Source: a virus
Lineage: Duplodnaviria > Caudoviricetes
Length of the DNA stretch: 33,165 nt
Direction: 5' to 3' (one strand)
Virus record (IMG/VR): IMGVR_UViG_3300017553_000007
Coordinates: 1 to 33,165 of that record
The first letter of the stretch is position 1, and every line of letters starts with the position of its first letter. Positions 1 through 18,448 of the stretch are shown here, piece by piece. The notes beneath the pieces were generated by a model, which saw only the letters and a program-made list of their open reading frames with translations, searched no databases and was not told where the DNA came from. The position numbers were made by a program, and so were the translations under genes.

Positions 1-1
1 G

Positions 2-97
2 CAGGAGAAGATGGCCCAGTGCAACAAGGACGCCGCGGCCAAGGCGCTGAAGGGCGATGAGCGCAAGACGTTCATGAGTGGGTGCCTGAAGAAATAG
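2..97 (+). CDS. psiF: 3' end of host PsiF-family protein (truncated by window edge)
   Basis: Frame 2 reads QEKMAQCNKDAAAKALKGDERKTFMSGCLKK*, matching the PsiF repeat pattern (Q-KM--CN--A----LKG--RK-FMS-CL). Confidence 0.8.
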   Translation, partial: QEKMAQCNKDAAAKALKGDERKTFMSGCLKK

Positions 98-131
98 CGG
101 GGGCGGGGCGCAGGTGTGGCCGGTGAACCCG

Positions 132-199
132 ATCGCGGACAAGGTCCGCTCCTACGCCCGTGCTTCCCTGTAACCGTAGGAGCGGACTCCGTCCGCGAT
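132..199. repeat. Inverted REP doublet (GTAG family)
   Basis: ATCGCGGACAAGGTCCGCTCCTAC (132-155) and GTAGGAGCGGACTCCGTCCGCGAT (176-199) are inverted copies, each with a GTAG foot and a GCGGAC...GTCCGC palindrome. Confidence 0.8.
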
Positions 200-228
200 T
201 CGGCGGATAACGCCGTACGCCAAGCCCA

Positions 229-349
229 CCGTAGGGCGTATAACCGTTCGCGGTTATCCGCCGACACACCCAAGCCCCCAGCCAACGCCCAGGTCAGCCC
301 CGGAGCCGCCGGGCGCCAAGGCCAAACGGCGGATAACGCGGAGCGTTAT
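229..349. repeat. Second GTAG REP doublet; distal copy is split by the prophage
   Basis: CCGTAGGGCGTATAACCGTTCGCGGTTATCCGCCG (229-263). The inverted partner begins at 327-349 (CGGCGGATAACGCGGAGCGTTAT) and is completed at 33048-33058 (TCGCCCTACGG). Confidence 0.8.
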
Positions 350-519
350 TGTGAGCTAGTGGGAGTATTGGCACAGGACCGGAGGAAGCCGGAAGAGCCC
401 GGAAGTGGCCGGAGAGCCCCGGATGGCGCGGGCCTTGGGAGAACAGCTGGATGAAGTAGTGCCAAAGCTGTGAAATTCGACTAGAGCGAAATTTGACGGG
501 GGTAATTGGCACTACCCCC
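350..519. promoter_or_regulatory. Left end (attL) with putative transposase-binding sites
   Basis: TTGGCA at 368-373 (nt 19-24 from the end), TGCCAA at 460-465 (inverted), TTGGCA at 506-511; same core as the right-end sites. Confidence 0.7.
379..423 (+). repeat. Five CCGGA pentamers at exact 10-bp phase
   Basis: CCGGA starts at 379, 389, 399, 409 and 419. Confidence 0.8.
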
Positions 520-537
520 TGCGCCCCGGAACCAGCC

Positions 538-1272
538 CTAAATCAGCCAGCCCCCAGCCCACACGGCACGGCCGACAATCTGCAGCTCATTGAGCCGAGC
601 CTTTGGGACCACCATGACCTGGTAGGCCTTGTTCTCGCTTATGACATGAACGGAGCCGTCGAACTGGCGTTGGAGCCTTTTGGCATACAGGTGGTCATCA
701 AGCAGGATGACGTAGACGCCTTCCCCCTCAAGGGTATTGCGGCTTTCGTCGATCATCACGGTGTCGTCGTCTTCTATCAGCCCCAGCATCGAATCACCAT
801 CATTTCGGAGGCAGGACAACGTTTCCGGGTTGAGCCCTTTCTTTCGAAGGCTGTAGCGCGTGAACGCCAGGTGCGCCAGCACGCGCGCGCGTTCGTTCCA
901 AGCTCCGTGCCCTGAACTGCAACGAGCGTCATAGAGAGGGATATACGCGTAAATATCCTCCGGAGCCTTGTCCTTAGCCGCTTTGGGCTGAGGGGTGGTG
1001 AACTTCTCACCTTCTCCCGTCATCAGCCAAAGCAAGTTTACTTCGCAGCTTCTGGCGAGACTGATCAGAACCCGGCGTGTTGGCTCCCCTCCCTTCAGGT
1101 AGCGCTGCAGACCTCCCTGGGAGATTCCAGCAGCACGCGCTAAAGCAGTTACGCTCCCCGCCATAGAAGCCATCTCTCGCAGTCTCTCAATGAAGGCGCT
1201 GTCGCTTTCAGCTTCCCCCTCGGAACTTGAAAGCAGCTGATCTTCGGCGTTTTCAACTTTCAACTTTTGCAA
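538..1272 (-). CDS. Prophage repressor: XRE-type HTH plus S24 peptidase (CI/LexA-like); start uncertain
   Basis: HTH (VTALARAAGISQGGLQRYLKGGEPT), S24 motifs GDSM and AKRL, C-terminal IVGRAVW; divergent from ner at the left end. Confidence 0.9.
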   Translation of the reverse strand: MQKLKVENAEDQLLSSSEGEAESDSAFIERLREMASMAGSVTALARAAGISQGGLQRYLKGGEPTRRVLISLARSCEVNLLWLMTGEGEKFTTPQPKAAKDKAPEDIYAYIPLYDARCSSGHGAWNERARVLAHLAFTRYSLRKKGLNPETLSCLRNDGDSMLGLIEDDDTVMIDESRNTLEGEGVYVILLDDHLYAKRLQRQFDGSVHVISENKAYQVMVVPKARLNELQIVGRAVWAGGWLI

Positions 1273-1282
1273 CCCATTGATT
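1270..1282 (-). promoter_or_regulatory. Putative IHF site
   Basis: Minus strand AATCAATGGGTTG matches WATCAANNNNTTR exactly, with an adjacent AT-rich tract; position equivalent to the Mu operator IHF site. Confidence 0.65.
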
Positions 1283-1320
1283 TATAAGCAATAAATTCTA
1301 TAGAGGTCGCTATGGCATCG

Positions 1321-1377
1321 GATAGAAGTTGAAAATTCGCTATAGCACTTGAATTTCAACTTCTATCGCACTATGTT
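1321..1377 (+). promoter_or_regulatory. Operator palindrome overlapping the early promoter
   Basis: 14-bp perfect arms GATAGAAGTTGAAA (1321-1334) and TTTCAACTTCTATC (1354-1367); -35 TTGAAT (1349-1354), 17-nt spacer, -10 TATGTT (1372-1377). Confidence 0.65.
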
Positions 1378-1436
1378 TATCCGCAACAGGCTGTTAGACG
1401 GCCCTAAAAAACCACCCGCCAAGATGGTTGTTGCTG

Positions 1437-1763
1437 ATGAACCTAGCAGACATGCCACATGACCCCGCCCAGCGCTGGGAGTGGATCAAGTACCAACTGC
1501 GCCTTCGGGAGTGCTCGACCGCCAAGCTGGCACGCCAGCTTGGCGTTACGGACCGGGCAATCCGGGCCGTCAAGACGACGCCGTACCCCCGCATGGAGCG
1601 CGCCATTGCCGAAGCCCTCGGCGTCAAGACACAGGAGCTATGGCCCGAACGCTGGGACAGCGAAGGCAATCCCAAACGGCAGCGGCCCAACCGCGCAGAA
1701 AGCCGTGCCAAGGATAGCCGTTACTCTCCTGTTCCGCACCGTAAAACCGGCACGGAGGCTTGA
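1437..1763 (+). CDS. ner: Ner-like (Nlp/SfsB family) DNA-binding regulator
   Basis: IKYQLRLRECSTAKLARQLGV...PYPRMERAIAEALGVKTQELWPERW is the Ner pattern; first early gene; ATG 1437 preferred over TTG 1428. Confidence 0.85.
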   Translation: MNLADMPHDPAQRWEWIKYQLRLRECSTAKLARQLGVTDRAIRAVKTTPYPRMERAIAEALGVKTQELWPERWDSEGNPKRQRPNRAESRAKDSRYSPVPHRKTGTEA

Positions 1764-1765
1764 AC

Positions 1766-2209
1766 ATGCGTCACGGAAAAGACGACCGCACCCTGAATAT
1801 TGAGTTCGATGTTCCCCAGCCCGTAGCTGTCAGCTCTTGCGACTTCCGGGTGCAGGTCAGCGAAATCGTTAGCGAGATTCTGGACGGTGCAAAGCTGGCA
1901 GGCCTGCAGCGCTGCGACATCGCCGCACAAATGTCCCGCGCCTCCGGCGAGGACATCAGCAAGCACATGCTCGACGCGTGGTCGTCCCCGGCCCGCGTTG
2001 ACCACAACCTGCCGTTCTATAGAGCTGCGCTACTGGAACAGGTCTGCGGCACCCATCGCCTGACTGACCTTCTCGTTGAAATCCGAGGCGGCCGAGTCGC
2101 CTACGGCCGCGACGCGCTGCTGGCCGAGTTGGGCCGGCAAGAGCGCATCCGCGAGGAAGCGACTCGAAAGGCACGCGAACTGCGGCGCCATCTGGGGGGT
2201 GGGGCATGA
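1766..2209 (+). CDS. Phage hypothetical protein (possible DNA-binding)
   Basis: GGAGG at 1754-1758 before ATG 1766; ATGA-coupled to the next gene. Confidence 0.7.
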   Translation: MRHGKDDRTLNIEFDVPQPVAVSSCDFRVQVSEIVSEILDGAKLAGLQRCDIAAQMSRASGEDISKHMLDAWSSPARVDHNLPFYRAALLEQVCGTHRLTDLLVEIRGGRVAYGRDALLAELGRQERIREEATRKARELRRHLGGGA

Positions 2210-2445
2210 GGCCGTCGCACTTGAAGCCAGGTACTTGGCTGCTGATTCGCGAAGCCTTTGGCACCGGTGAGTATCGCGCCCGCTTCGAGGGCCGTACTCC
2301 TGCCCAAGGCAAGGGGCGTCCGGCTGTCAACCGCCTGTTTAACCCTGAATGGATCGGCTTGTCCGGCGCAGATGATCACGGCATCGCAACCATTAGCGAC
2401 TACGAACTAGCCCGGCGCGGACGCCTGCTGGGAGATCGCCCATGA
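2206..2445 (+). CDS. Hypothetical protein
   Basis: ATGA overlaps at both ends within the early operon. Confidence 0.65.
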   Translation: MRPSHLKPGTWLLIREAFGTGEYRARFEGRTPAQGKGRPAVNRLFNPEWIGLSGADDHGIATISDYELARRGRLLGDRP

Positions 2446-2636
2446 ATCGTATTCCTCAGGCGCTGCTCGACGATCTGCGCAACGCGACCGAATACCACAA
2501 CTACGTCCAACAGTGCCCGCCTGTTGCGGCGTTGAAAGACGACAAGACCGCCAGCGAATGGCTGCTTACTGCAGCGCTCAACCTCGGCGCAGCCCTGATC
2601 GAAGCCCACTCTGCCGGCGAGGTGCCCCATGCGTAA
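2442..2636 (+). CDS. Hypothetical protein
   Basis: GGAG SD; coupled to the upstream gene and overlapping the transposase start. Confidence 0.6.
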   Translation: MNRIPQALLDDLRNATEYHNYVQQCPPVAALKDDKTASEWLLTAALNLGAALIEAHSAGEVPHA

Positions 2637-4680
2637 GTGGTTTACTGCGCAAGAGCTGGCAGGCTTACCGGGCCTTCCTGGAACCGTTCAAGGTGTAAAT
2701 CACCGTGCAAGGCGAGAGGGTTGGGAGGCTCAGTTGCGTCTTGCTCAAGGAGGCGGACGCGAGTTCTCCTTCGCCGTCCTCCCTGCCGAAACCCAGGCCG
2801 CCCTGCTGGCCCGCCTGGTGCAGCAGGAAGAGCCGCAGCAGGCTCCGCAACCCACTGCCCCGCACGCGCTCATTACGCCTAAGCGTGACGGCATTTCCGC
2901 GTCACGCTTGAACGATGATCAGCGCGAGGTCATGACCGCGCGTATCGCCATCATTCGCGAGATCGAGCGCATGAGCCAGATGGTCAGCCAGCAGCGGGCC
3001 ATCCTGACGCTTGTCGGCCTGGCCCGTGACAGCAAGCTCAGCCCCTACCTGGCCGGCCAGGTGGAGCGCGCAAACGACCGCAAGACGCCCGACCGCACCT
3101 TGAGCGAGCGCACACTCAAGCGCTGGCTGGCGGACTACCGCAAGCACGGCGAGATTGCGTTGGCCCCCGTGCGGCGCAAGCCCAACATGAGCATTCCGAG
3201 CTGGGCGCCGGTCTTCCTCAAGCACTACCAGCGCCCGCAGAAGCCGAGCGTTGAAGCGGCTTATGCAGCGTTCGCCGCCGAGAACCCCGGCTGCCCGAGC
3301 ATTCATGCCGTGCGCCGCTTCCTCGCCAAGTTGAGCCCGGAGGCTCGCGAGCAGGGCCGCATGGGCAGCCGCGAGCTGAAAGCGCTACAGCCCTTCAAGC
3401 GCCGTCAGGCCCATCAGCTGTGGCCCAACGACGTGTGGGTGGCGGACGGCCACACGTTCGACGCGGAAATCATCAACCCGCTGACGGGGCAAATCTTCCG
3501 CCCGGAAATCACCCTGGTCATCGACTGGGCAACCCGCCGGATCACGGGCTTTTCCGTCAACCTGGCCGAGTCGACGCTGGCGACACTCGACACGCTGCGC
3601 GACGGTGTCAGCCGCTGCGGCATGTACAAGGTGCTGTACGTCGACAACGGCGGCGGCTTCGATAACGCCGACGTCTACGAGGTCAACGACCGCTTGGGTG
3701 GCGAAATCACGCACTCCCTACCGTACAACTCCCAGGCGCGGGGCGTTATCGAGCGGGCGCACCGGACCATCCTGGTGCGACTGGCGAAGGACTTCGACAG
3801 CTACATGGGCGCGGACATGGACAATGAAGCCGCTACCCGTGTCCATCGCCTGTCCCGCAAGCAACTGGCAGAAGGCATCACCCCCACTCAGATTCCCGAG
3901 TTCGGCACCTTCTTCGCCAAGCTGCAGGATGCCCTGGACGCCTACAACCACGCTCCGCACCGCGGGCTTCGGAAGGTCCGCGACATCGCCACCGGCCTGA
4001 TGCGACACCAATCGCCCATGGAGGCCTGGAAGTCCGCTATCGCCGAAGGCTGGGAGCCTCTGCAGGCATCGGCCGACATCGTTGCCAGCGTGACGCGACC
4101 GCAGGTCGTCCGCACCACCAACCGGGGCGAGGTCCGCTTCAGCGGCAACATCTACTTCTTGGACGCCCTGCGTGACATCCACGGCGAACAGGTCCGCGTT
4201 GCCTACGACTTCCGCGACGCCAGCCGGGTGTGGGTTTACGACATGGACGGCGAGCTTATCGGGGAGGCTCTGCTCGATGGCAACGCCACTCCGGCGATGC
4301 CGGCGTCCCTGCTGGAGAAGGCAGCCGACAAGCGCGAGCGCGGCCAACTGGCGCGCCTGGTGAAGAAGGCCAAGACGCTGACCGGCCAGGACGTGGAAAT
4401 CCGCGTGCTGCCGCAAGGACAGCCCAGCGCCGAGCTGGCACCGGAACAACTGGCCGATGCGCGCCAGGTGGCCGCCCGGCTGGCAGCCGCGGAACCGGTC
4501 TTCACGCTGCCCGACGACCGCATGTCCCGCTACCACCTGTGGAACCGCCTTGCCGCCCGCCGCGATGCAGGCGAGCCCCTGACCGCTGCCGAATCCCAAT
4601 GGCTGGAGAGTTACGCCAAGCACCCGGACCTGGCGTCCGTGCGCCGCGTCTTCGAGTTCGCCGCCACCGCTACCGCTTAA
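2629..4680 (+). CDS. MuA-like DDE transposase
   Basis: N-terminal Mu-type HTH (WFTAQELAGLPGLPGT); DDE motifs VWVADGH, LYVDNG, RGVIER; Mu C-terminal barrel (VRVAYDFRDASRVWVYD). Confidence 0.95.
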   Translation: MRKWFTAQELAGLPGLPGTVQGVNHRARREGWEAQLRLAQGGGREFSFAVLPAETQAALLARLVQQEEPQQAPQPTAPHALITPKRDGISASRLNDDQREVMTARIAIIREIERMSQMVSQQRAILTLVGLARDSKLSPYLAGQVERANDRKTPDRTLSERTLKRWLADYRKHGEIALAPVRRKPNMSIPSWAPVFLKHYQRPQKPSVEAAYAAFAAENPGCPSIHAVRRFLAKLSPEAREQGRMGSRELKALQPFKRRQAHQLWPNDVWVADGHTFDAEIINPLTGQIFRPEITLVIDWATRRITGFSVNLAESTLATLDTLRDGVSRCGMYKVLYVDNGGGFDNADVYEVNDRLGGEITHSLPYNSQARGVIERAHRTILVRLAKDFDSYMGADMDNEAATRVHRLSRKQLAEGITPTQIPEFGTFFAKLQDALDAYNHAPHRGLRKVRDIATGLMRHQSPMEAWKSAIAEGWEPLQASADIVASVTRPQVVRTTNRGEVRFSGNIYFLDALRDIHGEQVRVAYDFRDASRVWVYDMDGELIGEALLDGNATPAMPASLLEKAADKRERGQLARLVKKAKTLTGQDVEIRVLPQGQPSAELAPEQLADARQVAARLAAAEPVFTLPDDRMSRYHLWNRLAARRDAGEPLTAAESQWLESYAKHPDLASVRRVFEFAATATA

Positions 4681-4718
4681 CAAACGGGCCGCCGGAGAGC
4701 GGCCAAAGGAGTGAAGCA

Positions 4719-5438
4719 ATGAGTAAGTCCATGATTGCCCCTCTGACCAACGTCGGCCTGCTGTCCAGCGCCATCGACCGCGCAATGCAGCGTCCGCTGG
4801 GCCTGCCCGGCCTGGTCGTCATGTACGGGGCCTCCGGCCTGGGCAAGTCGGTAAGCGCCGCCTTCGCCGCCAACATGCACCGCGCCTACTACGTCGAGTG
4901 CCGCGATACCTGGTCGAAAAAGGCCTTCCTGCTCGCAATCCTCCGTGAGATGGGCCTGGCCCCCAGCCGCACCCTGAGCGAGATGGTCGACCAGGTCGCC
5001 GAGCAACTGTCGCGCTCGGGCCGCCCGCTGCTGGTGGATGACGCCCAGTACCTGCTGGACAAGGCTGTCGCGAACGTCATCACCGATATCTACAACGCCA
5101 GCCAAGGCACCATCGTGCTGATCGGTGAAGAGCGCGTTCCCGGCAGCCTGGCAAAGCTGGAGCGCCTGCACAACCGCGTCCTGGAATGGGTGCCAGCACA
5201 GCCGGCCACCCTGGACGACCTGCGCACGTTGGCCAGCGCCACCTATCCAAGCCTGGAAATCGAGGACGAGCTGCTGGACGACCTGCGTCAGAAGACTCGC
5301 GGCTGCCTGCGCCGTGCCGCTGTGAACCTCTACCGCATCAGCACCGAGGCCCAGGCCCATGGCGTCAGCCGCTTCGGCATGGCCCATTGGGGGAAACGCC
5401 CCTGGTTCACCGGGGAAGCCCCGGCGCGGAGGGCTTGA
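4719..5438 (+). CDS. MuB-like AAA+ transposition ATPase
   Basis: Walker A GASGLGKS, Walker B LLVDDAQYL; AAGGAG SD before ATG 4719; follows the transposase. Confidence 0.9.
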   Translation: MSKSMIAPLTNVGLLSSAIDRAMQRPLGLPGLVVMYGASGLGKSVSAAFAANMHRAYYVECRDTWSKKAFLLAILREMGLAPSRTLSEMVDQVAEQLSRSGRPLLVDDAQYLLDKAVANVITDIYNASQGTIVLIGEERVPGSLAKLERLHNRVLEWVPAQPATLDDLRTLASATYPSLEIEDELLDDLRQKTRGCLRRAAVNLYRISTEAQAHGVSRFGMAHWGKRPWFTGEAPARRA

Positions 5439-5440
5439 GC

Positions 5441-6238
5441 ATGGCCCGCAAGCCCGTACACCTGGCAATGGTCGGCGGCAAGGCCCCCAGGCAGCACATG
5501 TGGGAGGCCATTCGCTCTCTGTCCCGCGATCCGAAGGCCCTGACCACCTACAACGTCGCACGGCTCTCCGGCCAGGACGACGAGGCCGTGCATAGCTACC
5601 TGCGCGACCTGGCCACGGCCGGCATCGTCCAGCGCCTGGAGGTGCTGAGCAAACGCAACTACCGGTGGAAGCTGGAGACGGACGAGGGTGCCGAGGCCCC
5701 GCGCGTCAACAAGCGCGGCGAGCGCGTGCCGCCGCCGGCTGTGGAAAGCATCTGGCGCACGCTGCGCATCCTGGGCGAGATGAGCGCCGCCGAGGCGGCA
5801 GAGCACGCCAGCGTCAACGGCGTGACCATGACCGAACAGGCGGCCCGCATCTACCTGCAGGGGCTGACCCTCGCCGGCTACGTCACCCGTACCGACGGGA
5901 CCCCAGGCAAGCCCGCCCGCTATCACCTGGTTCGCCAGCGCTACACCGGCCCGCAGCACCCGGTCTATCAGCGCAGCACTTTCGAGCAGGTCTACGACCC
6001 GAACCTGGACCAGGTGGTGTGGAGCAAGGGCGACGGGGAAAGCTCGGAGCTGGCCGGCCTCCGACTTGAAAAGGCCCGTCTGGAGCGGTTGCTGATCGAC
6101 CTGTGCGCGGCCAGCCGACCGGTAAGCACGTTAGCGGACCGCATGATTGCCCAGTTCCACCGGGATGACAGTGAGCGGTCAGAGGGCATCGCGGCCCTGC
6201 GCACGTTCTATGACCTGGTGCGCGAGGTGCGCGCATGA
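5441..6238 (+). CDS. Hypothetical protein, probably tandem winged-helix
   Basis: GGAGG SD; two similar segments (MWEAIR..YLRDLATAGIV and IWRTLR..YLQGLTLAGYV); typical position after MuB. Confidence 0.7.
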   Translation: MARKPVHLAMVGGKAPRQHMWEAIRSLSRDPKALTTYNVARLSGQDDEAVHSYLRDLATAGIVQRLEVLSKRNYRWKLETDEGAEAPRVNKRGERVPPPAVESIWRTLRILGEMSAAEAAEHASVNGVTMTEQAARIYLQGLTLAGYVTRTDGTPGKPARYHLVRQRYTGPQHPVYQRSTFEQVYDPNLDQVVWSKGDGESSELAGLRLEKARLERLLIDLCAASRPVSTLADRMIAQFHRDDSERSEGIAALRTFYDLVREVRA

Positions 6239-6618
6239 CTCGCGTCGACCTGTCCGCCTGGGGCGAGCAGCCCCCGGCCTGGGTGGTCCTGCTTGCCGCC
6301 GAGGTTCAGCAAACCAATCGCACCCGAGCCGGCGAGCGCATCGGCATGAGCCGCTCGGCCGTCAGCCTTGTGCTCTCCAACCGCTACCCGTCGCCGTCCA
6401 CCGCTGCCGTCGAGCGCCGCGTAGTCGAGGCCCTCGGCGCCCTGGACTGCCCAGCACTCGACGCACGCATCAGCGTCGTCGAGTGCCAAGAGTTCCGCGA
6501 AATGCGGGCCCCGACTCACAACCCACACGCCATGCAGCGCTGGCGCGCATGCCAGCACTGCCCCTTGAACCCCAACTGCGCGAAAGCCCTGGAGGCGAGC
6601 GATGCAACCCAGCACTAA
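6235..6618 (+). CDS. HTH plus Cys-cluster putative regulator
   Basis: TRAGERIGMSRSAVSLVLSNRY HTH; C..C..CQHCP C-terminus; ATGA coupling. Confidence 0.7.
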   Translation: MTRVDLSAWGEQPPAWVVLLAAEVQQTNRTRAGERIGMSRSAVSLVLSNRYPSPSTAAVERRVVEALGALDCPALDARISVVECQEFREMRAPTHNPHAMQRWRACQHCPLNPNCAKALEASDATQH

Positions 6619-6931
6619 CGCTCCACTGAAAGTCCTCACCCCGCAGTTTGCCGAGCGCCTGCGGACCTTCAACGAAGCCAGCCGCACGTTGCAGCGCATG
6701 GGCATCCGCCTGCACCGCATCGAGCCGGCCGTGAACCGCCTGACCATCGCGCCGGAGGATGGTCGCCGCCTCGTCCAGCTGCGCATGGTGGCCGGCTTCC
6801 AACGCCAAGCCTCTGCTGGCAGCACGCGCTACATCGCGCAGTTCCAGGGCGTCGAGTTGGTCTGGTCAGAGCCCATCAGCTATCGCGACTTCGCCCGCCC
6901 CACCAGCCCCATCGACCTGACTTTCCATTGA
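6602..6931 (+). CDS. Hypothetical protein
   Basis: GGAGG SD; in operon. Confidence 0.7.
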   Translation: MQPSTNAPLKVLTPQFAERLRTFNEASRTLQRMGIRLHRIEPAVNRLTIAPEDGRRLVQLRMVAGFQRQASAGSTRYIAQFQGVELVWSEPISYRDFARPTSPIDLTFH

Positions 6932-6948
6932 CCAACAGGAGCAACCCC

Positions 6949-7566
6949 ATGAACGCAACTGCAATTCCTGCCGGCTACCGGTACGACGCCCAGCGCCGTC
7001 TGGTGCATGAAGACATGATCAAGCCCATCGACCAGGCCCGCGACAAGCTGGTGCTGGAGCTGGTCGACAAGGCCCAGGCCCTGAGCAAGCAACTGGCCGA
7101 GTTCAAAATGAGCGCCTTCGGCGACGTCGCCGCCTTCGTTGACATGTCCGTCGAAGAGTACGGCGTCAAGCGCCGTGGCACGAAAGGCAACGTGTCGCTG
7201 TTGAGCTTTGACGGCCGCTACATGATCAAGAAGGCCGTGCAGGAGTCCATCCAGTTCGACGAGCGCCTGCTCGCTGCGCGTGCGCTGATCGACGAGTGCC
7301 TGCTCGAATGGACCGAGGGCGCCCGCCCTGAGGTGGTTGCTCTGATCAATGACGCCTTCCGCACCGACACCAAGGGCGAAATCCGCACCGCCCGCGTGCT
7401 CGCGCTGCGGCGGCTGAACATCACCGACGAGCGCTGGCAAAAGGCGATGCAAGCCATTGGCGAGGCCTGCCAGGTTGCCGGCTCCAAGGACTACATCCGT
7501 GTCTATGAGCGAGTCGGCGACACGGACCAGTGGAAGGCCATCCCGCTCGACATCGCGGGGGTGTAA
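6949..7566 (+). CDS. DUF3164-like protein
   Basis: IKPIDQARD..KGNVSLLSFDGRY..FDERL..W.KAM.AI..YIRVYER..IPLDIA pattern; AGGAG SD before ATG 6949. Confidence 0.8.
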   Translation: MNATAIPAGYRYDAQRRLVHEDMIKPIDQARDKLVLELVDKAQALSKQLAEFKMSAFGDVAAFVDMSVEEYGVKRRGTKGNVSLLSFDGRYMIKKAVQESIQFDERLLAARALIDECLLEWTEGARPEVVALINDAFRTDTKGEIRTARVLALRRLNITDERWQKAMQAIGEACQVAGSKDYIRVYERVGDTDQWKAIPLDIAGV

Positions 7567-7568
7567 CC

Positions 7569-7874
7569 ATGGCCGCTCGCAAGCAACAGCTCTGCGTCGT
7601 CACCCTGGGATATGAGCGATTCCTGCTGCCTCAAGGTGACGCCCTCAAGATGATCGACATCATGAGCCGCGCTGCCAAGGTGGATATCGACTACACCACC
7701 AGCGGAGGCCTCAAGTACCTCGTCCGCGAGACGCCTGACGCAGAGCTGACGGTGGTACGCCCTGGTCAGTTGGTCATGCCTCAGGCCGAAGCGGTCCCGG
7801 CTGCACCTCGCGCCCGGCGGAAGTCTACGCCCCAGCTGGAGCACAACCCCATCCGACTGCTGGGGGACTTCTGA
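7569..7874 (+). CDS. Hypothetical protein
   Basis: ATG 2 nt after the previous stop; in operon. Confidence 0.65.
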   Translation: MAARKQQLCVVTLGYERFLLPQGDALKMIDIMSRAAKVDIDYTTSGGLKYLVRETPDAELTVVRPGQLVMPQAEAVPAAPRARRKSTPQLEHNPIRLLGDF

Positions 7875-7876
7875 TC

Positions 7877-8161
7877 ATGGCGAAAATCTTTGCAGTCTGC
7901 CGCATCGACGGCCTGATCGAGCTGCGCGAGGGGCGCCCCGGCGAGGGCTATTTCGCCCTCGCTATAGGCGAGCTGGCGAGCGTGCAACAGGCAATCCTCG
8001 CTACCGCCGAGCCACAGGTGACGGAGGGCGGAACGGTGGTTCGCCGCGTGCCGGGCGTGAGCTCCGAGGCCAGCGCCCGCGAGAACCTGGGCGCCATCGC
8101 TCGCTACATCCAAACCCTGGGCCAGCAGGATCGGCCTGCCTTCCGAGCGCTGGGGGTGTGA
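7877..8161 (+). CDS. Hypothetical early protein
   Basis: GGGGGA SD; tight operon packing. Confidence 0.7.
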   Translation: MAKIFAVCRIDGLIELREGRPGEGYFALAIGELASVQQAILATAEPQVTEGGTVVRRVPGVSSEASARENLGAIARYIQTLGQQDRPAFRALGV

Positions 8162-8162
8162 C

Positions 8163-8606
8163 ATGCGCGGAACCCTAGTCGTATTCCAAGACAACGACCA
8201 GGACTTCCTGGTCTGGCAGTTGGACCAGGACGGTGTCGTCACGCGGAGCTGGCCGTTTCAGACCGACGTGTGGGCCGGCACCAAGGTCCTCAACGTGGCA
8301 TCGCTCAAGCATGACGGCGTGGTGAAAGCCGCACGCAATGGCCGCCCCTGGGAGTGCCGTCATGAGGTGGTCGCAGTCCACCCGATTCGGCCGGTTGACG
8401 TGTCGGTCAAGTGGGACGGTATCGCGGGTTACGTGACCAGCACGGTTCGAGGCCAGCGGGCGTCCTGCACCCATGACGCGGTGGCTCCGGTGCAGCGCCT
8501 GGCCGAGAAGGTTTTCCCCAGCTTGCAGTGCCGCATCGAGCGCCTGGAGTGCCAGCCAGTCGGCAGGCTCCACAGCCTATGGCGAATCACCCCGGAGGGC
8601 CTCTGA
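8163..8606 (+). CDS. Hypothetical protein
   Basis: 147-aa ORF tightly packed in operon. Confidence 0.7.
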   Translation: MRGTLVVFQDNDQDFLVWQLDQDGVVTRSWPFQTDVWAGTKVLNVASLKHDGVVKAARNGRPWECRHEVVAVHPIRPVDVSVKWDGIAGYVTSTVRGQRASCTHDAVAPVQRLAEKVFPSLQCRIERLECQPVGRLHSLWRITPEGL

Positions 8607-8608
8607 CT

Positions 8609-8860
8609 ATGAGCAAGTTCACCATCACCATCGAAGACGAGAACGGTTGCCTGAGCGTCACCATGGCCGGCGACGGCAAGCCGGAAGGGTTTGCGGGACT
8701 GACCGCCGTGGCGCTTATGAGGCTCGCCCAGGACGTAGTGCCAAAGGCCGTCAAGCGCGCTGCCATGAATAGCGACTGCCAGTGCGAGAAGTGCAAGGCC
8801 GCGCGCGCCGAGGTGCAGACCGAGGCATCAGCCCCCAACGGAAAACCGACAATCCACTGA
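8609..8860 (+). CDS. Hypothetical protein with CxCxxC motif
   Basis: GGAGG SD before ATG 8609; DCQCEKC; its stop abuts the ribozyme. Confidence 0.7.
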   Translation: MSKFTITIEDENGCLSVTMAGDGKPEGFAGLTAVALMRLAQDVVPKAVKRAAMNSDCQCEKCKAARAEVQTEASAPNGKPTIH

Positions 8861-8926
8861 GCGAAACCGCCCCGGCCTGACCGGGGACGGTCTGCCCAGC
8901 GTGGTGGCTGGGTACTGACGAGCAGC
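8854..8926 (+). ncRNA. Type II hammerhead ribozyme
   Basis: GAAA (8863-8866), stem III (8866-8875/8881-8891), GUC cleavage triplet (8890-8892), 8-bp stem I (8893-8900/8907-8914), CUGACGA core (8915-8921), short stem II (GC 8861-8862/GC 8922-8923); loop I GUGG can pair with CCAC (8854-8857). Confidence 0.9.
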
Positions 8927-8936
8927 CGAGGAACCT

Positions 8937-9611
8937 ATGGAACACAGCAAGGCCCTGGACAAAATCAAGAAACTGCTGCGCCTGGCCGGTAGCAGCAACC
9001 CACACGAAGCGGCGAACGCCATGCGCCAGGCGCGGGCGATGATGGAGAAGTTCGGTATCGGCGAGGGGGATGTCGCCCTCTCCGAGGTCACCGAACACGG
9101 CGCTGGGAGCGGCTCCAAAGTGAAGCCTGCCCAGTGGGAAGCGAACCTCTCCGTCACCGTGGCGAAGGCATACTCCTGCCGCACGCTCTTCCGAGGCGGC
9201 GTCGGCCAGTGGCGTTTCGTTGGCGAGATGGCCGAGGTAGCTGGCTACACCATGACCATTCTGCTGCGCCAGGTTCGCCAGGCGCGCCGTGAGTACATCG
9301 CCACTGTGCTGAAGCGCTGCAAGCCGGCGACCAAGACCAAGCGCGGCGACTTGTTCTGCGAGGCCTGGGTTTGGGCGGTGCGTCAGCAGGTAAACCAGTT
9401 TGCCGGGGCTGAGGCTCCGTCGCAGGCTGCCGAAGCCTACATGCTCAAGCACTACCCCAACCTAGTGCAGGGCAAGGCCATTGATCGCACCAGCAAGAAA
9501 GGTCCGCTCGGTGCGCGCGACATGCTCGATGCAGCCAAGGGTATCGAGGCGGCGGACGGCGTCCAGCTCAACCACGGCGTCGGTGGATCGGCGCCCCTGG
9601 CCCTGACCTGA
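8937..9611 (+). CDS. DUF2786-domain protein
   Basis: N-terminal LDKIKKLLRLAGSSNPHEAANAMRQARAMMEKFGI; GAGGA SD. Confidence 0.85.
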   Translation: MEHSKALDKIKKLLRLAGSSNPHEAANAMRQARAMMEKFGIGEGDVALSEVTEHGAGSGSKVKPAQWEANLSVTVAKAYSCRTLFRGGVGQWRFVGEMAEVAGYTMTILLRQVRQARREYIATVLKRCKPATKTKRGDLFCEAWVWAVRQQVNQFAGAEAPSQAAEAYMLKHYPNLVQGKAIDRTSKKGPLGARDMLDAAKGIEAADGVQLNHGVGGSAPLALT

Positions 9612-9620
9612 GGTAGCGCC

Positions 9621-9899
9621 ATGACCAAGCCCCGCACCGACAAAGTCCGCAAGCAGGACGCCAACCGCCAGCAGCAACTGCGCAACCGCAGGGGGGCGCA
9701 CAAGCAGGCCGTGGGCGCAGAGAAACTCAAGCTCGAAATCTACGCAGGAACCCGCGCCGACATCGACACAATGTGCCAGGTCGGCGGCTTCGAAGAGGAA
9801 GCCGAGGCCATCACCCTTGGCCTACGCTACCTGGCCGGCATGGCGCGCAGCCATCCCGAGGCGTTCCGCAGCGCCATGGACCCGAGGAACCCGGTATGA
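9621..9899 (+). CDS. Hypothetical protein
   Basis: GAGGT SD; in operon. Confidence 0.7.
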   Translation: MTKPRTDKVRKQDANRQQQLRNRRGAHKQAVGAEKLKLEIYAGTRADIDTMCQVGGFEEEAEAITLGLRYLAGMARSHPEAFRSAMDPRNPV

Positions 9900-10150
9900 C
9901 TCCCGAGACCATCAACGTCGCCGGCATCCCGGCGGCGGCCAACGAAGAGATCGACAAGCCCCGTTTCCAGACCACCCTGGATGGCGTGGAGCAGCGCTGC
10001 AGCAAGTGCGACGAATACTGGCCGTATGACGCGGAGTTCTTCTTCAAAGGTAGCAACGGCAAGCTCTACACCTACTGCAAGGCCTGCTACTACGAAATGC
10101 CGTCCATGCAGAAGCGCCTCGCAGCACGCGGAAAACGGAGGTCGGTATGA
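9896..10150 (+). CDS. Small Zn-finger protein
   Basis: CSKC...CKAC; ATGA coupling at both ends; GAGGA SD. Confidence 0.65.
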   Translation: MTPETINVAGIPAAANEEIDKPRFQTTLDGVEQRCSKCDEYWPYDAEFFFKGSNGKLYTYCKACYYEMPSMQKRLAARGKRRSV

Positions 10151-10551
10151 GCAGCAAGGGCCGCCAACTGATCCAGATCGCCCGCCGCCAGTTGGGCATG
10201 GACGACGACACATACCGCGCACTGCTCGGCCGCGTGGCCGGCGTGCGGTCCTCTACTGCACTCTCACCGCGCCAGGTCGGCCTGGTGCTGGCCGAGCTGG
10301 AGCGCCTGGGCTGGCAGTCTGTTCGGAAGCCGGCCGGCCGCGCCGCGCCGAAGGCGGCACCGGATCGCCAGGCCCTGGTTGGCAAGATCGAGGCGTTCCT
10401 GGCCGAGGCCGGGCGCCCCTGGAGCTACGCAGACGCCATGGCCCTGCGGATGTTCCAGGTGGAACGTGTGGAGTGGCTGGACGCCGGCCAGCTGGGCCGC
10501 CTGGTCGCCGCCCTGGCGTATGACGCGAAGCGTCACGGGCGGCGCGTATGA
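10147..10551 (+). CDS. gemA: GemA (Mu gp16/DUF1018)-like regulator
   Basis: IQIARRQLGMDDDTYRALL..GVRSS..L; directly upstream of the Mor-family gene. Confidence 0.88.
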   Translation: MSSKGRQLIQIARRQLGMDDDTYRALLGRVAGVRSSTALSPRQVGLVLAELERLGWQSVRKPAGRAAPKAAPDRQALVGKIEAFLAEAGRPWSYADAMALRMFQVERVEWLDAGQLGRLVAALAYDAKRHGRRV

Positions 10552-10988
10552 GCATGAACCTGGAGCAGGTGCGGGACCAACTGCCCGCCCAGGTGCTGGA
10601 GATCGCCGACGTGGTGGGTATGCCCGCCGCCCTGCGCCTGGTCACGGAGCTGGGCGGGACAACCTGGGAGTTCGCCAAGGGCGCTAACCGCAACGGGCAA
10701 ATCCGGGTGGCGGCGCTGGCGGACATCGTCGGCGATGACGCGGCGCAGTTGCTGACCTCCCGTCTTGGGGGCGACGTGGTCTATATCCCGCGCTGCGACG
10801 TGGCGCTGCGCCGGTTGCGTGACCTTGAGATTCATCGCCAGTTCGAGCAGGCGGTGCGCGAAGGCGTGAGCGCGCGGGTGGTGGTTGCGGAACTGGCCAG
10901 AACTTATAAGCTCTCCGACCGTCGTATCTGGATCATCCTCAACCAGGTGCTGCCAGACCCCACCGCACCTGGCGACCTCTTCGACTAG
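10548..10988 (+). CDS. mor: Mor/C-family transcription activator
   Basis: LGGDVVYIPRC..RDLEI..LARTYKLSDRRIWIIL. Confidence 0.88.
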   Translation: MSMNLEQVRDQLPAQVLEIADVVGMPAALRLVTELGGTTWEFAKGANRNGQIRVAALADIVGDDAAQLLTSRLGGDVVYIPRCDVALRRLRDLEIHRQFEQAVREGVSARVVVAELARTYKLSDRRIWIILNQVLPDPTAPGDLFD

Positions 10989-11014
10989 CCCCGCCCTCGC
11001 GGGGCTTTGTCTTT
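10987..11014 (+). terminator. Intrinsic terminator ending the early/middle operon
   Basis: AGCCCCGC-CCTC-GCGGGGCT followed by TTGTCTTT. Confidence 0.8.
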
Positions 11015-11015
11015 C

Positions 11016-11070
11016 TGCTGAACCCCTTCCTCTAAAACGCCGCCCGTCGCCTTAGCACTATGGCGGCATG
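11016..11070 (+). promoter_or_regulatory. Putative late promoter 1 (Mor/C-dependent)
   Basis: TGCTGAACCCCTTCCTCTAA ... ACTATGGCGGCATGAAC; both blocks are repeated at 18393-18451. Confidence 0.7.
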
Positions 11071-11412
11071 AACGCACAGCCGATCTACCACGCCCCCACC
11101 AGCCCGCGCGAGTATGCCGCGCTGGTACTGGCCGAGCCCAATCTGGAGCGCCGCCGGGACCTGATGGCCAGGTGCCCCGAGCACTGGCGCGAGCTGGTGA
11201 GCGAACACGTCAAAACCGGCTACTCGAGAATCCAGTCCTACCGCGCTTTCATCAGCGGCCGCCGCCAGTCGATGGCGGCAGGCCCCCAGCCAGCGCCGCG
11301 CAGGGAAGACACCAGCTTCCGCATCAGCGACTTCAAGAAGTCCGCGCCCGAGAAGGGCAACCAGGAACTGGCCAAGCTCAAGGCCCTGGTGGGAGGCCGC
11401 GATGGGGATTAA
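11068..11412 (+). CDS. Soluble hypothetical protein, first late gene
   Basis: 114-aa ORF after the late promoter; no hydrophobic TM stretch. Confidence 0.7.
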   Translation: MNAQPIYHAPTSPREYAALVLAEPNLERRRDLMARCPEHWRELVSEHVKTGYSRIQSYRAFISGRRQSMAAGPQPAPRREDTSFRISDFKKSAPEKGNQELAKLKALVGGRDGD

Positions 11413-11905
11413 GGCGCGCGTCCTGGCGGCGGCCCTGCTGATCGCTACGCCTGTGGTCGGCCGCTTCGAAGGCCGCAACCTGCTGGCCTACCTCGACCCG
11501 GTGGGCATCCCCACCATCTGCGACGGCTGGACCCGTGGCGTCAGGCTCGGTGACCGGGCGACGCCGGCCGAGTGCGACGAGCGTACCCGCCAGGGCTTGG
11601 AGGAAGCGGCCCAGGTCTTCGAAGCCTGGGTGCCGCAGCAGGTCATCGACCGGCTGCCGGCCAGCACCGGCGCGGCCTTCCTGTCCTTCATCTACAACGT
11701 CGGCCCCGGCAAGCCGGGCGTGAAGGATGGCTTCGTTTGGCTTAAGAACGGCAACCACTCAACCATGCTGCGCGAGCTGCAGGCCGGGCGGATCGCCCAG
11801 GCCTGCGCCCAGCTCCCCAGCTGGACCAGTGCTGGCGGCCGGAAGCTCAACGGCCTGGTCAAGCGCCGCGCCGCCGAGCGAGCGCTGTGCGAGGTCGACC
11901 TATGA
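11402..11905 (+). CDS. SAR-type endolysin (GH24 lysozyme)
   Basis: Ala-rich N-terminal anchor, then E-x8-D-x5-T triad (FEGRNLLAYLDPVGIPT); GLVKRRAAE. Confidence 0.92.
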   Translation: MGIKARVLAAALLIATPVVGRFEGRNLLAYLDPVGIPTICDGWTRGVRLGDRATPAECDERTRQGLEEAAQVFEAWVPQQVIDRLPASTGAAFLSFIYNVGPGKPGVKDGFVWLKNGNHSTMLRELQAGRIAQACAQLPSWTSAGGRKLNGLVKRRAAERALCEVDL

Positions 11906-12531
11906 CCTGGCTCGACATCCTCAAGCGTCTGGCCGGCCCGGTGGCGGTCTTGTTTGTTCTGTTCCTGATCGTTGCCGGCCTGGAGGCGATGCAGGCCATG
12001 GCGCGGCAACAGGGCTACGACCAGGCCCAGGCCGAGGGCAAGGCCGCCCTGGAGCAGCTGCAGCGGCAGTACGCCGAGGCTGACACCCAGCGCGCCCGCC
12101 AGGCCGAGGCCGATGCCAAAGCCGCCGCGAATCGCCTGGCATCGGAGAAGGCCAGGGCCGACAAGCTCGCCGACGAGCTGGCCGAGCAGCAGCGCCAACA
12201 CCGCAAGACCACTGACCACCTCGCTGGGGAGATAGCACGTGTCAACGACCTCTACCGGGATGCGCTCGATGCGCCGCCTAAGCCTGTGCCTGCTTGCCTG
12301 CTTACTCGCGGCTGGGTGCGAGTCTACGACGAAGCAACCGGCGCCCGTGTGCCAGCCGATCCAGCTGCCGCCGGAGCTGCTGCGCCGACCGGAGCCGGCA
12401 GCCCCGCTGACCAACTCCCCGCAGACGTCGACCAGCGCGCCGTCCTGGCCCACCACGTTCGCTATGCCGAGCAGTGCCGGAACACGGCCGCTCAGTTGGA
12501 CGCTCTGATCGACGCCGTGGAGGGCCATTGA
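11902..12531 (+). CDS. Rz-like inner-membrane spanin
   Basis: N-terminal TM, long Ala/Gln coiled coil, follows the endolysin with ATGA overlap. Confidence 0.78.
   Translation: MTWLDILKRLAGPVAVLFVLFLIVAGLEAMQAMARQQGYDQAQAEGKAALEQLQRQYAEADTQRARQAEADAKAAANRLASEKARADKLADELAEQQRQHRKTTDHLAGEIARVNDLYRDALDAPPKPVPACLLTRGWVRVYDEATGARVPADPAAAGAAAPTGAGSPADQLPADVDQRAVLAHHVRYAEQCRNTAAQLDALIDAVEGH
12260..12508 (+). CDS. Rz1-like outer-membrane lipoprotein spanin embedded in the +1 frame
   Basis: MRSMRRLSLCLLACLLAAG-C lipobox followed by a Pro-rich mature region; wholly inside the i-spanin gene. Confidence 0.75.
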   Translation: MRSMRRLSLCLLACLLAAGCESTTKQPAPVCQPIQLPPELLRRPEPAAPLTNSPQTSTSAPSWPTTFAMPSSAGTRPLSWTL

Positions 12532-12905
12532 TGGCAACCGATCTGATCGGCTGGGCAATTTCGCTGCTGTCCATCTTCGCCGCCGTCGTAACCGCGCTGG
12601 TCAAGCTGCTGCTCTGGCAGTTCGAGAAGCGCCTGTCCGAGCGTTTCACCAGCCAAGACGAGGCACGCAAGGAAGCCAGCAAGCACTGGGAAGAGAGCTT
12701 CGCCAAGGTCCTGGAGCGCCAGGACAAGGACGCACTGGCCCTGCAGCAGCTGGAGCGCGCCTTCTTGAACTTTAAAGCCGACCTGCCCTTGGAGTACGTC
12801 CGCCGCGAAGACTGGGCGCGTGGGCATTCGATCATCGAAGCCAAGCTCGACGGCCTGGCGCTCAGGTACGAAAACATCCTGCTCAAAGGAGCGCGCAATG
12901 ATTGA
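12531..12905 (+). CDS. Membrane-anchored coiled-coil protein in the Mu gp25 position
   Basis: N-terminal TM, coiled coil, LPLEYVRREDW; synteny after the spanins. Confidence 0.65.
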   Translation: MATDLIGWAISLLSIFAAVVTALVKLLLWQFEKRLSERFTSQDEARKEASKHWEESFAKVLERQDKDALALQQLERAFLNFKADLPLEYVRREDWARGHSIIEAKLDGLALRYENILLKGARND

Positions 12906-13209
12906 TCCCGCCAAAGCACGCCGGGAGTCTCTTCGCTGGTTCATCCTGCTGACTCTCAACACCTCCCGGCCCGTGGACCCGCACGAAACCGTGGTGCTCT
13001 CGACCATCCAGGGCATCTACCCGGACGCCACTGCGCTGGAGCTGCGCCGCGAGCTGGACTACCTGGCTGACCGCAGCCTGGTCACCCTGGAGAAGAAGCC
13101 CAGCGGCCAGTGGATTTGCGGCCTAACCCACTACGGCGTGGACGTTGCCGAGTACACCATTGAGTGTCACCCCGGTATCGCCCGGCCCGAGAAGTACTGG
13201 AGCGCCTGA
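12898..13209 (+). CDS. Mu gp26-like protein
   Basis: RWFILLTL..LRRELDYL..LTHYGVDVAE..PGIARP; upstream of terS. Confidence 0.7.
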   Translation: MIDPAKARRESLRWFILLTLNTSRPVDPHETVVLSTIQGIYPDATALELRRELDYLADRSLVTLEKKPSGQWICGLTHYGVDVAEYTIECHPGIARPEKYWSA

Positions 13210-17812: not shown

Positions 17813-17895
17813 GGCTAGGCGACGGGTGCAGGTAAGTGGCGTTTGCGCGTCCTGCGCAAATCTAACGGCGGTCTAACGGTATGACGAGGACGAGT

Positions 17896-18390
17896 ATGCA
17901 GATGGAACGATAGGAAGATCAGGAAAAGCCCCAGGTCGAGCGCTTCGGCGGGATCTTGCGGGCGGACACTTCGGGCGAGCAGTGTGCCAAGTATATCCTG
18001 GCCAGCGAGTATGACCGCCTGGCCGCTGAAGCGGAGACCTTCCGCATCAGTTCCGACATCAAGCAGGCGAACCTGGAGCTTGAGCAAGAGCGCTACCGGT
18101 ACGCCCTGATGCGTATAAAGGAGATGGACCTGCTGTTCGCCCGGTTCATCCTGGCCATGCGCTCGGCCGTCATCGAGATGGACCACGGCGCCGGAGCGGA
18201 AGCGGCCATGACCTGGATCGTCAACAGCCTGGCCGGTCCCGGCGAGCTGCCGCCGGACGACGAGGCCGACGCACAAGGCTACTTCGACCGGGAGATCGCC
18301 GTGGTGGATAAGTCCCTGGCCGAGGTGTTTGCCTTCTTCAAGGCGAATCGCCTGCCGCCTGGCTGGGGATCGGCTCGCACTCATTGCTGA
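17896..18390 (+). pseudogene. Accessory gene with an in-frame amber at codon 6 (or a CDS from TTG 17956)
   Basis: GAGGA SD (17886-17890), ATG 17896, MQMER, TAG (17911-17913), then EDQEKPQVERFGGILRAD... continuing in frame to 18390. Confidence 0.55.
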
Positions 18391-18392
18391 CT

Positions 18393-18448
18393 TGCTGAAC
18401 CCCTTCCTCTAATCCCGCCCCCCTCATGCCGCCGACTATGGCGGCATG
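18393..18448 (+). promoter_or_regulatory. Putative late promoter 2
   Basis: Identical TGCTGAACCCCTTCCTCTAA box, and ACTATGGCGGCATG at near-identical spacing to promoter 1. Confidence 0.7.

What the first reader, a model, noticed from the sequence alone, without database searches (positions are those of the whole stretch)
8854..8926. Type II hammerhead ribozyme fills the only sizeable intergenic gap in the accessory early region
Seen: the full hammerhead core in type II permutation. It has GC-GAAA (8861-8866), a 10-bp stem III with one bulged A, GUC at 8890-8892, an 8-bp stem I with loop GUGGUG, and CUGACGA-GC (8915-8923). Stem II is only about 2 bp, but loop I GUGG is complementary to CCAC (8854-8857). 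That CCAC lies in the last codons of the upstream gene, just before its UGA. Known: hammerheads need loop I/stem II tertiary contacts for fast cleavage, and type II examples are reported from bacterial and phage sequences, with unclear roles. Inference: cleavage after C8892 would split the early transcript and release a 5'-OH RNA starting with a hairpin, carrying DUF2786, two small genes, gemA and mor. A ribosome terminating at 8858-8860 would block the pseudoknot. This suggests translation-coupled RNA processing that sets the level of the late activator.
Basis: partly seen in the sequence, partly recalled or inferred. Interest (0 to 1): 0.9.

Follow-up and report, generated by a model that had tools for sequence, protein, structure and literature searches.

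The report
Known hammerhead ribozyme in Mu-like phage
This is a genuine copy of a well-known self-cutting RNA (a type II hammerhead ribozyme), found at the same place in many Mu-like Pseudomonas phages, where it likely cuts the long early message just ahead of the last early genes; the proposed on/off control by a ribosome finishing the upstream gene is not supported, so the find is ordinary.

Summary
It is not new. It matches 119 Pseudomonas phage records (D3112, MP22, DMS3, JBD24) and is already annotated in LESphi4. Hammerheads near Mu-like phage genes are in print, and this scan has noted them on other DNA.

The proposed pseudoknot partner is wrong. In 72 relatives loop I pairs with the 3' tail (8925-8928; 98.6% paired, compensatory changes), as published for type II. 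Pairing with upstream CCAC is at shuffle level (59.7% vs 59.5%). CCAC is better read as Ile-His codons of a Lon-degron-like C-terminus. The 'ribosome blocks CCAC' switch therefore loses its basis.

Most likely role (inferred, no RNA data): constitutive cutting that frees the distal early mRNA (DUF2786 to gemA-mor) with a 5'-OH structured leader, like a natural RiboJ. The ribozyme also sits at a gene-swap junction. Mu itself shows no such ribozyme in its first 13 kb.

The parts
8609..8860 (+). Upstream small early gene (83 aa, no Pfam), C-terminus ...KPTIH, stop UGA abutting the ribozyme
   Evidence: weak phrog_3652 match for the longer ORF 8528-8860; the start at 8609 is my choice
8854..8857 (+). 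CCAC: last base of the Ile codon plus the His codon; not the conserved pseudoknot partner
8859..8931 (+). Type II hammerhead ribozyme, Rfam RF02276
   Evidence: 68.3 bits, model positions 1-66 of 66
8861..8866 (+). Stem II strand (G11.2, C11.1) and core G12-A13-A14-A15.1
   Evidence: sequence, Rfam alignment
8866..8891 (+). Stem III hairpin, 10 bp with bulged A8887; predicted to close the 3' end of the upstream product
8892..8893 (+). Predicted cleavage site, after C17 of GUC
   Evidence: position inferred from the family consensus; not observed in RNA
8893..8914 (+). Stem I hairpin, 8 bp, loop GUGGUG 8901-8906; predicted to start the downstream product
   Evidence: 6 of 8 pairs with changes on both sides, 98.6% paired
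8915..8923 (+). Core C3-U4-G5-A6-C7-G8-A9 and stem II strand G10.1-C10.2
8925..8928 (+). 3' tail GCCG, pseudoknot partner of loop UGGU 8902-8905 (two G-C pairs, two U-G wobbles in this copy)
   Evidence: PMC3088659
8928..8932 (+). Shine-Dalgarno-like GAGGA of the DUF2786 gene, sharing G8928 with the pseudoknot
   Evidence: sequence
8937..9611 (+). DUF2786 + DUF7168 gene, accessory in this phage group
   Evidence: present in JBD24, absent at this place in DMS3, MP22, LESphi4
9621..10150 (+). Two small genes of unknown function (9621-9899, about 9896-10150)
10147..10988 (+). gemA (10147-10551) and Mor-family activator (10548-10988)
   Evidence: Pfam PF06252, PF08765
10987..11016 (+). Terminator-like hairpin with T-rich tail right after mor; likely 3' end of the released RNA
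   Evidence: such sites number 3 against 2.9 expected by chance, so only its position supports it

Best explanation
This is a complete type II hammerhead ribozyme whose loop I pairs with its 3' tail, and it likely cuts the phage early transcript constitutively after C8892, which would free an mRNA for DUF2786, two small genes, gemA and mor that starts with a 5'-OH, structured leader. Shown: sequence, family membership, covariation of stem I and of the tail pseudoknot, conserved position upstream of gemA/mor. Inferred: after the cut only the 2-bp stem II and the core hold the halves together, so the cut should be effectively one-way. The upstream RNA would end in the stem III hairpin with a 2',3'-cyclic phosphate. 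The downstream RNA would keep stem I and the whole pseudoknot directly ahead of its ribosome-binding site. The effect would be to uncouple the decay and translation of the distal early genes from the transposition genes and to give whatever gene sits in this variable slot the same leader, as the engineered RiboJ insulator does. Any effect on Mor level would be a fixed setting, not a switch.
For: Rfam 68.3 bits. Stem I: 6 of 8 pairs change on both sides. Loop/tail: 98.6% of 288 cells paired, 8 cells changed on both sides, 0 of 500 shuffles reach either value; slid registers 1-75%. Perreault 2011 describes this pseudoknot, shows it is needed for speed, reports that it forms without the other strand, and proposes processing of long phage transcripts. 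Context: gemA/mor downstream in 27 of 38 loci and DUF3164 upstream in 30 of 38, against 1 of 40 and 0 of 40 for other type II hammerheads from the same scan. 119 Pseudomonas records match the ribozyme, 122 match the Mor protein (duplicates included). Flanking genes differ between relatives while the ribozyme stays. RiboJ raises mRNA about twofold and protein two- to tenfold (PMC6206723 passages). No variant base in the core.
Against: No cleavage assay and no RNA 5'-end data. Both outer pseudoknot pairs are wobbles in this copy. With 80 nt of upstream sequence ViennaRNA predicts stem I disrupted in the window (P about 0) and in 18 of 73 relatives, although shuffled leaders do the same in 26% of trials. 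In isolation loop+leader (-5.4 kcal/mol) scores better than loop+tail (-3.4). Only one pseudoknot pair shows two-sided change, and the sequences are related. No Rfam ribozyme in Mu 1-13000 or in 3 of 5 other Mu-like phages scanned, so it is not needed for the Mu life cycle. Protection by 5'-OH and hairpins is recalled knowledge, not tested here.
Confidence: 0.6

Rival explanations
1. One reading: loop I pairs with upstream CCAC to activate the ribozyme, and a ribosome terminating on UGA 8858-8860 hides CCAC and blocks cleavage, which sets the Mor level.
For: CCAC/GUGG is four Watson-Crick pairs, -5.4 kcal/mol with flanks. The upstream stop ends within one base of the ribozyme start in 43 of 74 (longest-ORF heuristic).
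Against: Loop/leader 59.7% paired vs 59.5% shuffled, 215 of 500 shuffles as high. Exact CCAC in 7 of 74. When the loop changes, the tail follows and the leader does not. In 10 loci with a hammerhead right after DUF2786 the stop abuts in all 10 but CCAC is present in 2. The published geometry uses the tail.
Confidence: 0.03
2. Translation coupling by other routes: a ribosome at the abutting stop codon would unwind stem II and GAAA, a 30S subunit on the GAGGA site would melt the tail pseudoknot, or ribosomes on the upstream gene would clear inhibitory pairing; cleavage would then track translation.
For: Stop at offset 0 in 29 of 74. The ribosome-binding site shares G8928 with the pseudoknot; tail G forms GAGG in 15 of 22 cases. 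DMS3-type copies have AUG only 8 nt after stem II. Predicted upstream invasion of stem I in several close relatives. Ribosome footprint sizes are recalled.
Against: Tight packing is the rule in this operon. 31 of 74 have the stop elsewhere, and start distances range from 5 to 55 nt. Upstream misfolding is no commoner than with shuffled leaders, and the invading helices differ between relatives. Real upstream codons pair more weakly than synonymous recodings (mean percentile 0.65 over 43; window 0.99; 3 of 43 at or below 0.1).
Confidence: 0.12
3. The main selected value is as a gene-cassette junction: the 70-nt ribozyme is the most conserved local sequence, recombination between copies would add, swap or drop accessory genes, and each incoming gene would arrive with a ready-made leader.
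For: JBD24 and DMS3 are 98% alike up to the ribozyme tail, then JBD24 carries DUF2786 and likeness resumes after it; LESphi4 breaks from both at the tail; L144 becomes 99% like the window at 8854 with a different upstream gene. 8 of 38 loci carry more than one copy. DUF2786 is flanked by two copies in L023 and L140. Cazares 2014 saw no common flanking target and called the mechanism mysterious.
Against: Mosaic joints fall at gene ends anyway: L143 breaks at 8609, a gene start without a ribozyme. The window and JBD24 have no second copy after DUF2786. A recombination anchor does not need an intact catalytic core and pseudoknot, which are kept. More likely a by-product than the cause.
Confidence: 0.15
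4. Cleavage would destabilise rather than protect, lowering expression of one side, as in glmS-type decay.
For: glmS precedent and the open state of the question (PMC6765202 section 13).
Against: Both products are predicted to keep a terminal hairpin. glmS decay relies on a 5'-3' exonuclease of Gram-positive hosts (recalled).
Confidence: 0.1

Closest known systems
Type II hammerhead ribozymes with a loop I / 3'-tail pseudoknot (Rfam RF02276; Perreault et al. 2011, PMC3088659)
   Same: Full core, type II permutation, 2-bp stem II, loop UGG and tail AGCC as in the Rfam consensus, prophage setting
   Different: Longer stem III (10 bp with a bulge); outer pseudoknot pairs are both wobbles; single copy here, not a flanking pair
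Hammerhead annotated in Pseudomonas phage LESphi4 (OQ594957.1, P41_nc1) and unannotated copies in D3112, MP22, DMS3, JBD24
   Same: Same position between the Gam-like/accessory genes and gemA-mor; 84-88% identical; same abutting stop and xxH C-terminus upstream
   Different: The gene after the ribozyme differs (DUF2786 here and in JBD24; other small genes in DMS3, MP22, LESphi4); the window phage is more distant (Mor about 46% identical)
Self-cleaving ribozymes enriched near Mu-like phage genes (stated in PMC10085705)
   Same: Exactly this genomic setting; the paper says the biological reason is unknown
   Different: Nothing of kind; this report adds the position of one subfamily between DUF3164 and gemA/mor
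RiboJ synthetic insulator (PMC6206723)
   Same: Works like it: ribozyme cut followed by a hairpin ahead of a ribosome-binding site, standardising the 5' end
   Different: RiboJ is engineered from an sTRSV ribozyme plus an added hairpin; here the hairpin and pseudoknot are the ribozyme's own; not a member
PK hammerhead of Zhan et al. 2024 (PMC11300833, PDB 8YDC)
   Same: Hammerhead core with a pseudoknot
   Different: There the pseudoknot replaces helix II in a pistol-like fold; here a true 2-bp stem II exists and the pseudoknot is with loop I

Membership tests
Hammerhead type II (RF02276) | Covariance-model score above the gathering cut-off | tested here: met
   68.3 vs 37 bits, model 1-66 of 66
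Hammerhead type II (RF02276) | Core CUGANGA, GAAA and NUH triplet without variant bases | tested here: met
   CUGACGA 8915-8921, GAAA 8863-8866, GUC 8890-8892
Hammerhead type II (RF02276) | Stems I and III closed by loops, stem II open and short | tested here: met
   invariance of stem II in A2 is built into my search pattern
Hammerhead type II (RF02276) | Pseudoknot between loop I and the 3' tail after stem II | tested here: met
   98.6% paired, 8 two-sided changes at one pair; 69 of 74 keep all four pairs
Hammerhead type II (RF02276) | Mg2+-dependent self-cleavage after C17 | not testable with these tools
   no assay; the runs laid were contigs only
   59.7% vs 59.5% shuffled; 13 of 74 keep all four pairs
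Clustered hammerheads flanking prophage genes (Perreault 2011) | Two or more copies bracketing a gene or block | tested here: not met
   one copy in the window; met in relatives such as L023, L140
PK (pistol-like) hammerhead | Pseudoknot helix in place of helix II | tested here: not met
   stem II is formed by 8861-8862 with 8922-8923; paper passages
Lon C-terminal His degron x-L/I-L/I/V-H (PMC11986505), for the upstream protein | Terminal His preceded by two aliphatic residues | tested here: inconclusive
   PTIH has terminal His and Ile but Thr at the L/I position; the paper's table includes FTVH and VTLH; degradation not tested

The most novel reading that the evidence does not exclude
In Mu-like phages this hammerhead subfamily is a natural plug-in insulator: it marks a cassette slot ahead of gemA-mor, serves as the crossover site through which accessory genes are gained and lost, and gives each incoming gene and the late activator a standard pseudoknot-capped 5'-OH leader whose overlap with the ribosome-binding site ties cleavage to translation. 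Because DMS3, MP22 and JBD phages carry it and are genetically tractable, a one-base core mutant would directly test what phage ribozymes do in vivo.
Probability: 0.15. Interest if true: 0.6.

Novelty: already known. Interest (0 to 1): 0.2.

Why it matters
As a discovery it matters little: family, pseudoknot, prophage setting and the transcript-processing idea date from 2011, and a related phage record already carries the annotation. What has some value is practical. The role of bacterial and phage self-cleaving ribozymes is described as largely open (PMC6765202, PMC10085705). This copy shows that common laboratory phages of Pseudomonas aeruginosa (D3112, DMS3, MP22, JBD24) carry one at a fixed place ahead of gemA-mor, so the open question can be tested with a single point mutant. 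The ribozyme may also explain one of the accessory-gene slots whose origin Cazares 2014 left unexplained.

Tried and rejected
Loop I/CCAC pseudoknot: rejected. CCAC as an anti-ribozyme element in any register: four or more Watson-Crick pairs to the loop occur in 15 of 74 leaders and in 15 of 74 control stretches further upstream. Selected upstream misfolding relieved by translation: the window folds that way in silico, but 18 of 73 real vs 26% shuffled, non-conserved helices, and weaker-than-recoded pairing argue against it (the recoding used the window's codon usage for GC-rich loci and may overstate the null). A second or decayed ribozyme in the window: none found. An internal sigma-70 promoter on the + strand in 7000-11500: none by consensus scan. 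Expression: no RNA holder listed; four runs laid were contigs with scattered pieces and cannot show a cut site. Literature: searches for hammerhead with D3112/LES/Mu-like terms listed no paper on this ribozyme in Pseudomonas Mu-like phages; no in vivo phage ribozyme mutant study appeared in the 15 listed of 129. D3112, DMS3 and three RefSeq accessions were not found in the Perreault supplements, but the dataset file is cut, so this shows no absence. Weinberg 2015 is not held; its Mu-like association is cited through PMC10085705. Rows dropped: 16 of 154 pattern matches as duplicates or one overlapping parse (138 kept); 64 of 138 outside the subfamily definition; L044 and L062 left out of alignment A2 for off-register loops; L024 and L058 as duplicate views.

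Full report
Setting. The window is a Mu/D3112-like transposable phage: repressor 538-1272 on the minus strand, transposase 2629-4680, transposition protein, small early genes, GemA, a Mor-family activator, lysis, head and tail genes. Its assembly is this one contig. The closest named DUF2786 relatives lie in Pseudomonas, Ectopseudomonas and Stutzerimonas genomes.

Observation. Rfam RF02276 Hammerhead_II matches 8859-8931 at 68.3 bits (cut-off 37) and is the only Rfam hit in the window; a looser scan of 1200-12000 shows no second ribozyme. Stems I and III appear in the minimum-energy fold with z -2.56. The 76-nt gap is the only one over 9 nt between 1459 and 10988 for the ORFs I used.

How common it is. 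A 111-nt query matches 137 phage records, 119 of them Pseudomonas, including D3112, MP22, DMS3, JBD24 and LESphi4; the Mor protein matches 122 Pseudomonas records. Both counts include GenBank/RefSeq duplicates. The LESphi4 record already annotates the element as 'Hammerhead ribozyme (type II), RF02276'. A pattern scan of viral contigs returned 133 loci from 7 of 64 parts of the collection, about 1200 estimated in all. Parsing gave 154 matches, 138 distinct, of which 74 share the window's layout (22-nt stem I segment, tail beginning with A). The pattern fixed the core, stem II and the first pairs of stems I and III, but left loop I, the rest of the tail and the leader free.

The pseudoknot. Perreault et al. 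2011 (PMC3088659; sections 6 and 7 read, other passages seen, supplements searched) define the type II pseudoknot as loop I with the 3' tail after stem II, show by deletion and compensatory mutation that it is needed for speed, and report that it forms without the other strand. In alignment A2 (72 sequences) loop 8902-8905 against tail 8925-8928 is paired in 98.6% of 288 cells, with 8 cells changed on both sides at one pair (G-C to A-U or C-G), and no shuffle of 500 reaches either value. All four pairs hold in 69 of 74 for the tail and 13 of 74 for the leader. The sequences are related, so the shuffle counts are not probabilities, but the contrast is plain. If that pairing formed it would compete with the activating pseudoknot, the opposite of the proposed role.

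Why CCAC recurs. The upstream protein ends PTIH. Among 43 loci whose upstream stop ends within one base of the ribozyme (longest-ORF heuristic), 23 end in His, 19 of them after Leu, Ile or Val, and only 12 of the 23 keep the four pairs. These His ends fall in 6 of 21 protein clusters. A C-terminal x-L/I-L/I/V-H motif is a Lon degron, found in about 3.9% of Yersinia ORFs (PMC11986505, passages). I infer that CCAC is mainly protein-level sequence; degradation is untested. Real upstream codons pair, if anything, more weakly with the ribozyme than synonymous recodings.

Translation coupling. The stop abuts the ribozyme in 29 of 74, also where CCAC is absent (10 of 10 loci with a copy right after DUF2786 abut, 2 have CCAC). 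A terminating ribosome would unwind stem II and GAAA whatever CCAC does (footprint recalled), and the downstream ribosome-binding site shares G8928 with the pseudoknot. Coupling is therefore physically possible by other routes. But nearly all genes in this operon abut, 31 of 74 have the stop elsewhere, and start distances vary from 5 to 55 nt. Folding with 80 nt of upstream RNA disrupts stem I in the window and in 18 of 73 relatives, no more than with shuffled leaders (26%), through helices that differ between relatives. I rate regulated coupling at about 0.15 in all its forms.

Genomic position. Of 38 subfamily loci selected by RNA sequence alone and held with up to 2.5 kb flanks, 27 have gemA or mor, always downstream, and 30 have DUF3164 upstream; other type II hammerheads from the same scan score 1 of 40 and 0 of 40. 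The genes next to the ribozyme vary. JBD24, DMS3 and LESphi4 are 96-98% alike up to the ribozyme tail and diverge there; L144 joins the window's sequence at 8854; L143 breaks at a gene start instead. Eight of 38 loci hold more than one copy, and DUF2786 is bracketed by two in L023 and L140. Cazares 2014 (PMC4378225; section 11 read, passages seen) found no common flanking target for accessory genes in this phage group and does not mention a ribozyme. No Rfam ribozyme was found in Mu 1-13000 or within 7 kb of mor in Klebsiella ST405-OXA48phi1.1, Mannheimia 3927AP2 or Pseudomonas VW-6B; KS10 has one and RS138 two near their mor genes. It is thus common but dispensable among Mu-like phages.

Likely working. 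Inferred steps: the early transcript passes the ribozyme, which folds with the tail pseudoknot and cuts after C8892. The halves share only a 2-bp stem and the core, so they part. The upstream RNA ends in stem III with a cyclic phosphate; the downstream RNA starts with a 5'-OH stem I and pseudoknot, then the ribosome-binding site, and runs to the terminator-like hairpin after mor. This would separate the fate of the distal early genes from that of the transposition genes and standardise the leader of a variable slot, as RiboJ does in engineered constructs (PMC6206723, passages). Processing of polycistronic phage RNA into pieces of different stability is the standing proposal in the field and remains unproven (PMC3088659; PMC6765202 section 13 read). 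No RNA evidence could be obtained here.

Known and new. The association of hammerheads with Mu-like phage genes is in print, with the reason unknown (PMC10085705, passage). PMC11300833 (passages) describes a different, pistol-like pseudoknot form. Earlier notes of this scan report the same element in other Mu-like prophages, 21 findings in at least 16 genomes, and judge it ordinary; they are unchecked notes and are not counted as support. My searches listed no paper that studies this ribozyme in D3112-like phages, but subscription papers and the cut Perreault dataset were not seen. Verdict: already known; observation right, regulatory model not supported; interest 0.2, kept above the floor because the element sits in tractable laboratory phages and makes an open question testable.

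Noticed in passing
window 8849-8860; L001, L023, L027, L040, L060, L111, L132: Proteins whose genes end at this ribozyme often finish in [LIV]-His (23 of 43 end in His, in 6 of 21 clusters), resembling the Lon C-terminal His degron; two other early genes of the window (6235-6618, 6602-6931) also end in His.
   Followed up: partly
L001:3069-3091 (DMS3), L002 (MP22), L021, L050: In these copies AUG follows stem II by only 8-9 nt with no purine-rich site in the tail, so the ribosome-binding site would have to lie in the catalytic core itself (predicted pairing weak, -1.9 kcal/mol).
   Followed up: partly
window 9600-9625 vs L132, L140: Relatives carry a second hammerhead between DUF2786 and the next small gene; the window has only a 9-nt spacer there, suggesting loss of that copy.
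   Followed up: partly
L143:3924, L149:3925: Close relatives with C11.1 changed to U, turning the first stem II pair into a G-U wobble.
   Followed up: no
L166:7005-7072 (Burkholderia phage KS10): Hammerhead right after the HU gene with one extra U between A9 and stem II.
   Followed up: no
L164:5267-5333 and 5950-6016 (Ralstonia phage RS138): Two identical hammerheads 683 nt apart bracket two small genes.
   Followed up: no
L054: Four subfamily hammerheads within about 2.5 kb, each followed by a near-identical ribosome-binding leader, in a contig without gemA/mor nearby.
   Followed up: no
window 17813-18445: Gap between the head morphogenesis gene and the protease gene, where D3112-like phages keep anti-CRISPR genes (recalled; PMC4378225 RGP G); the ORFs here have no Pfam match and only unknown-function PHROG matches.
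   Followed up: no
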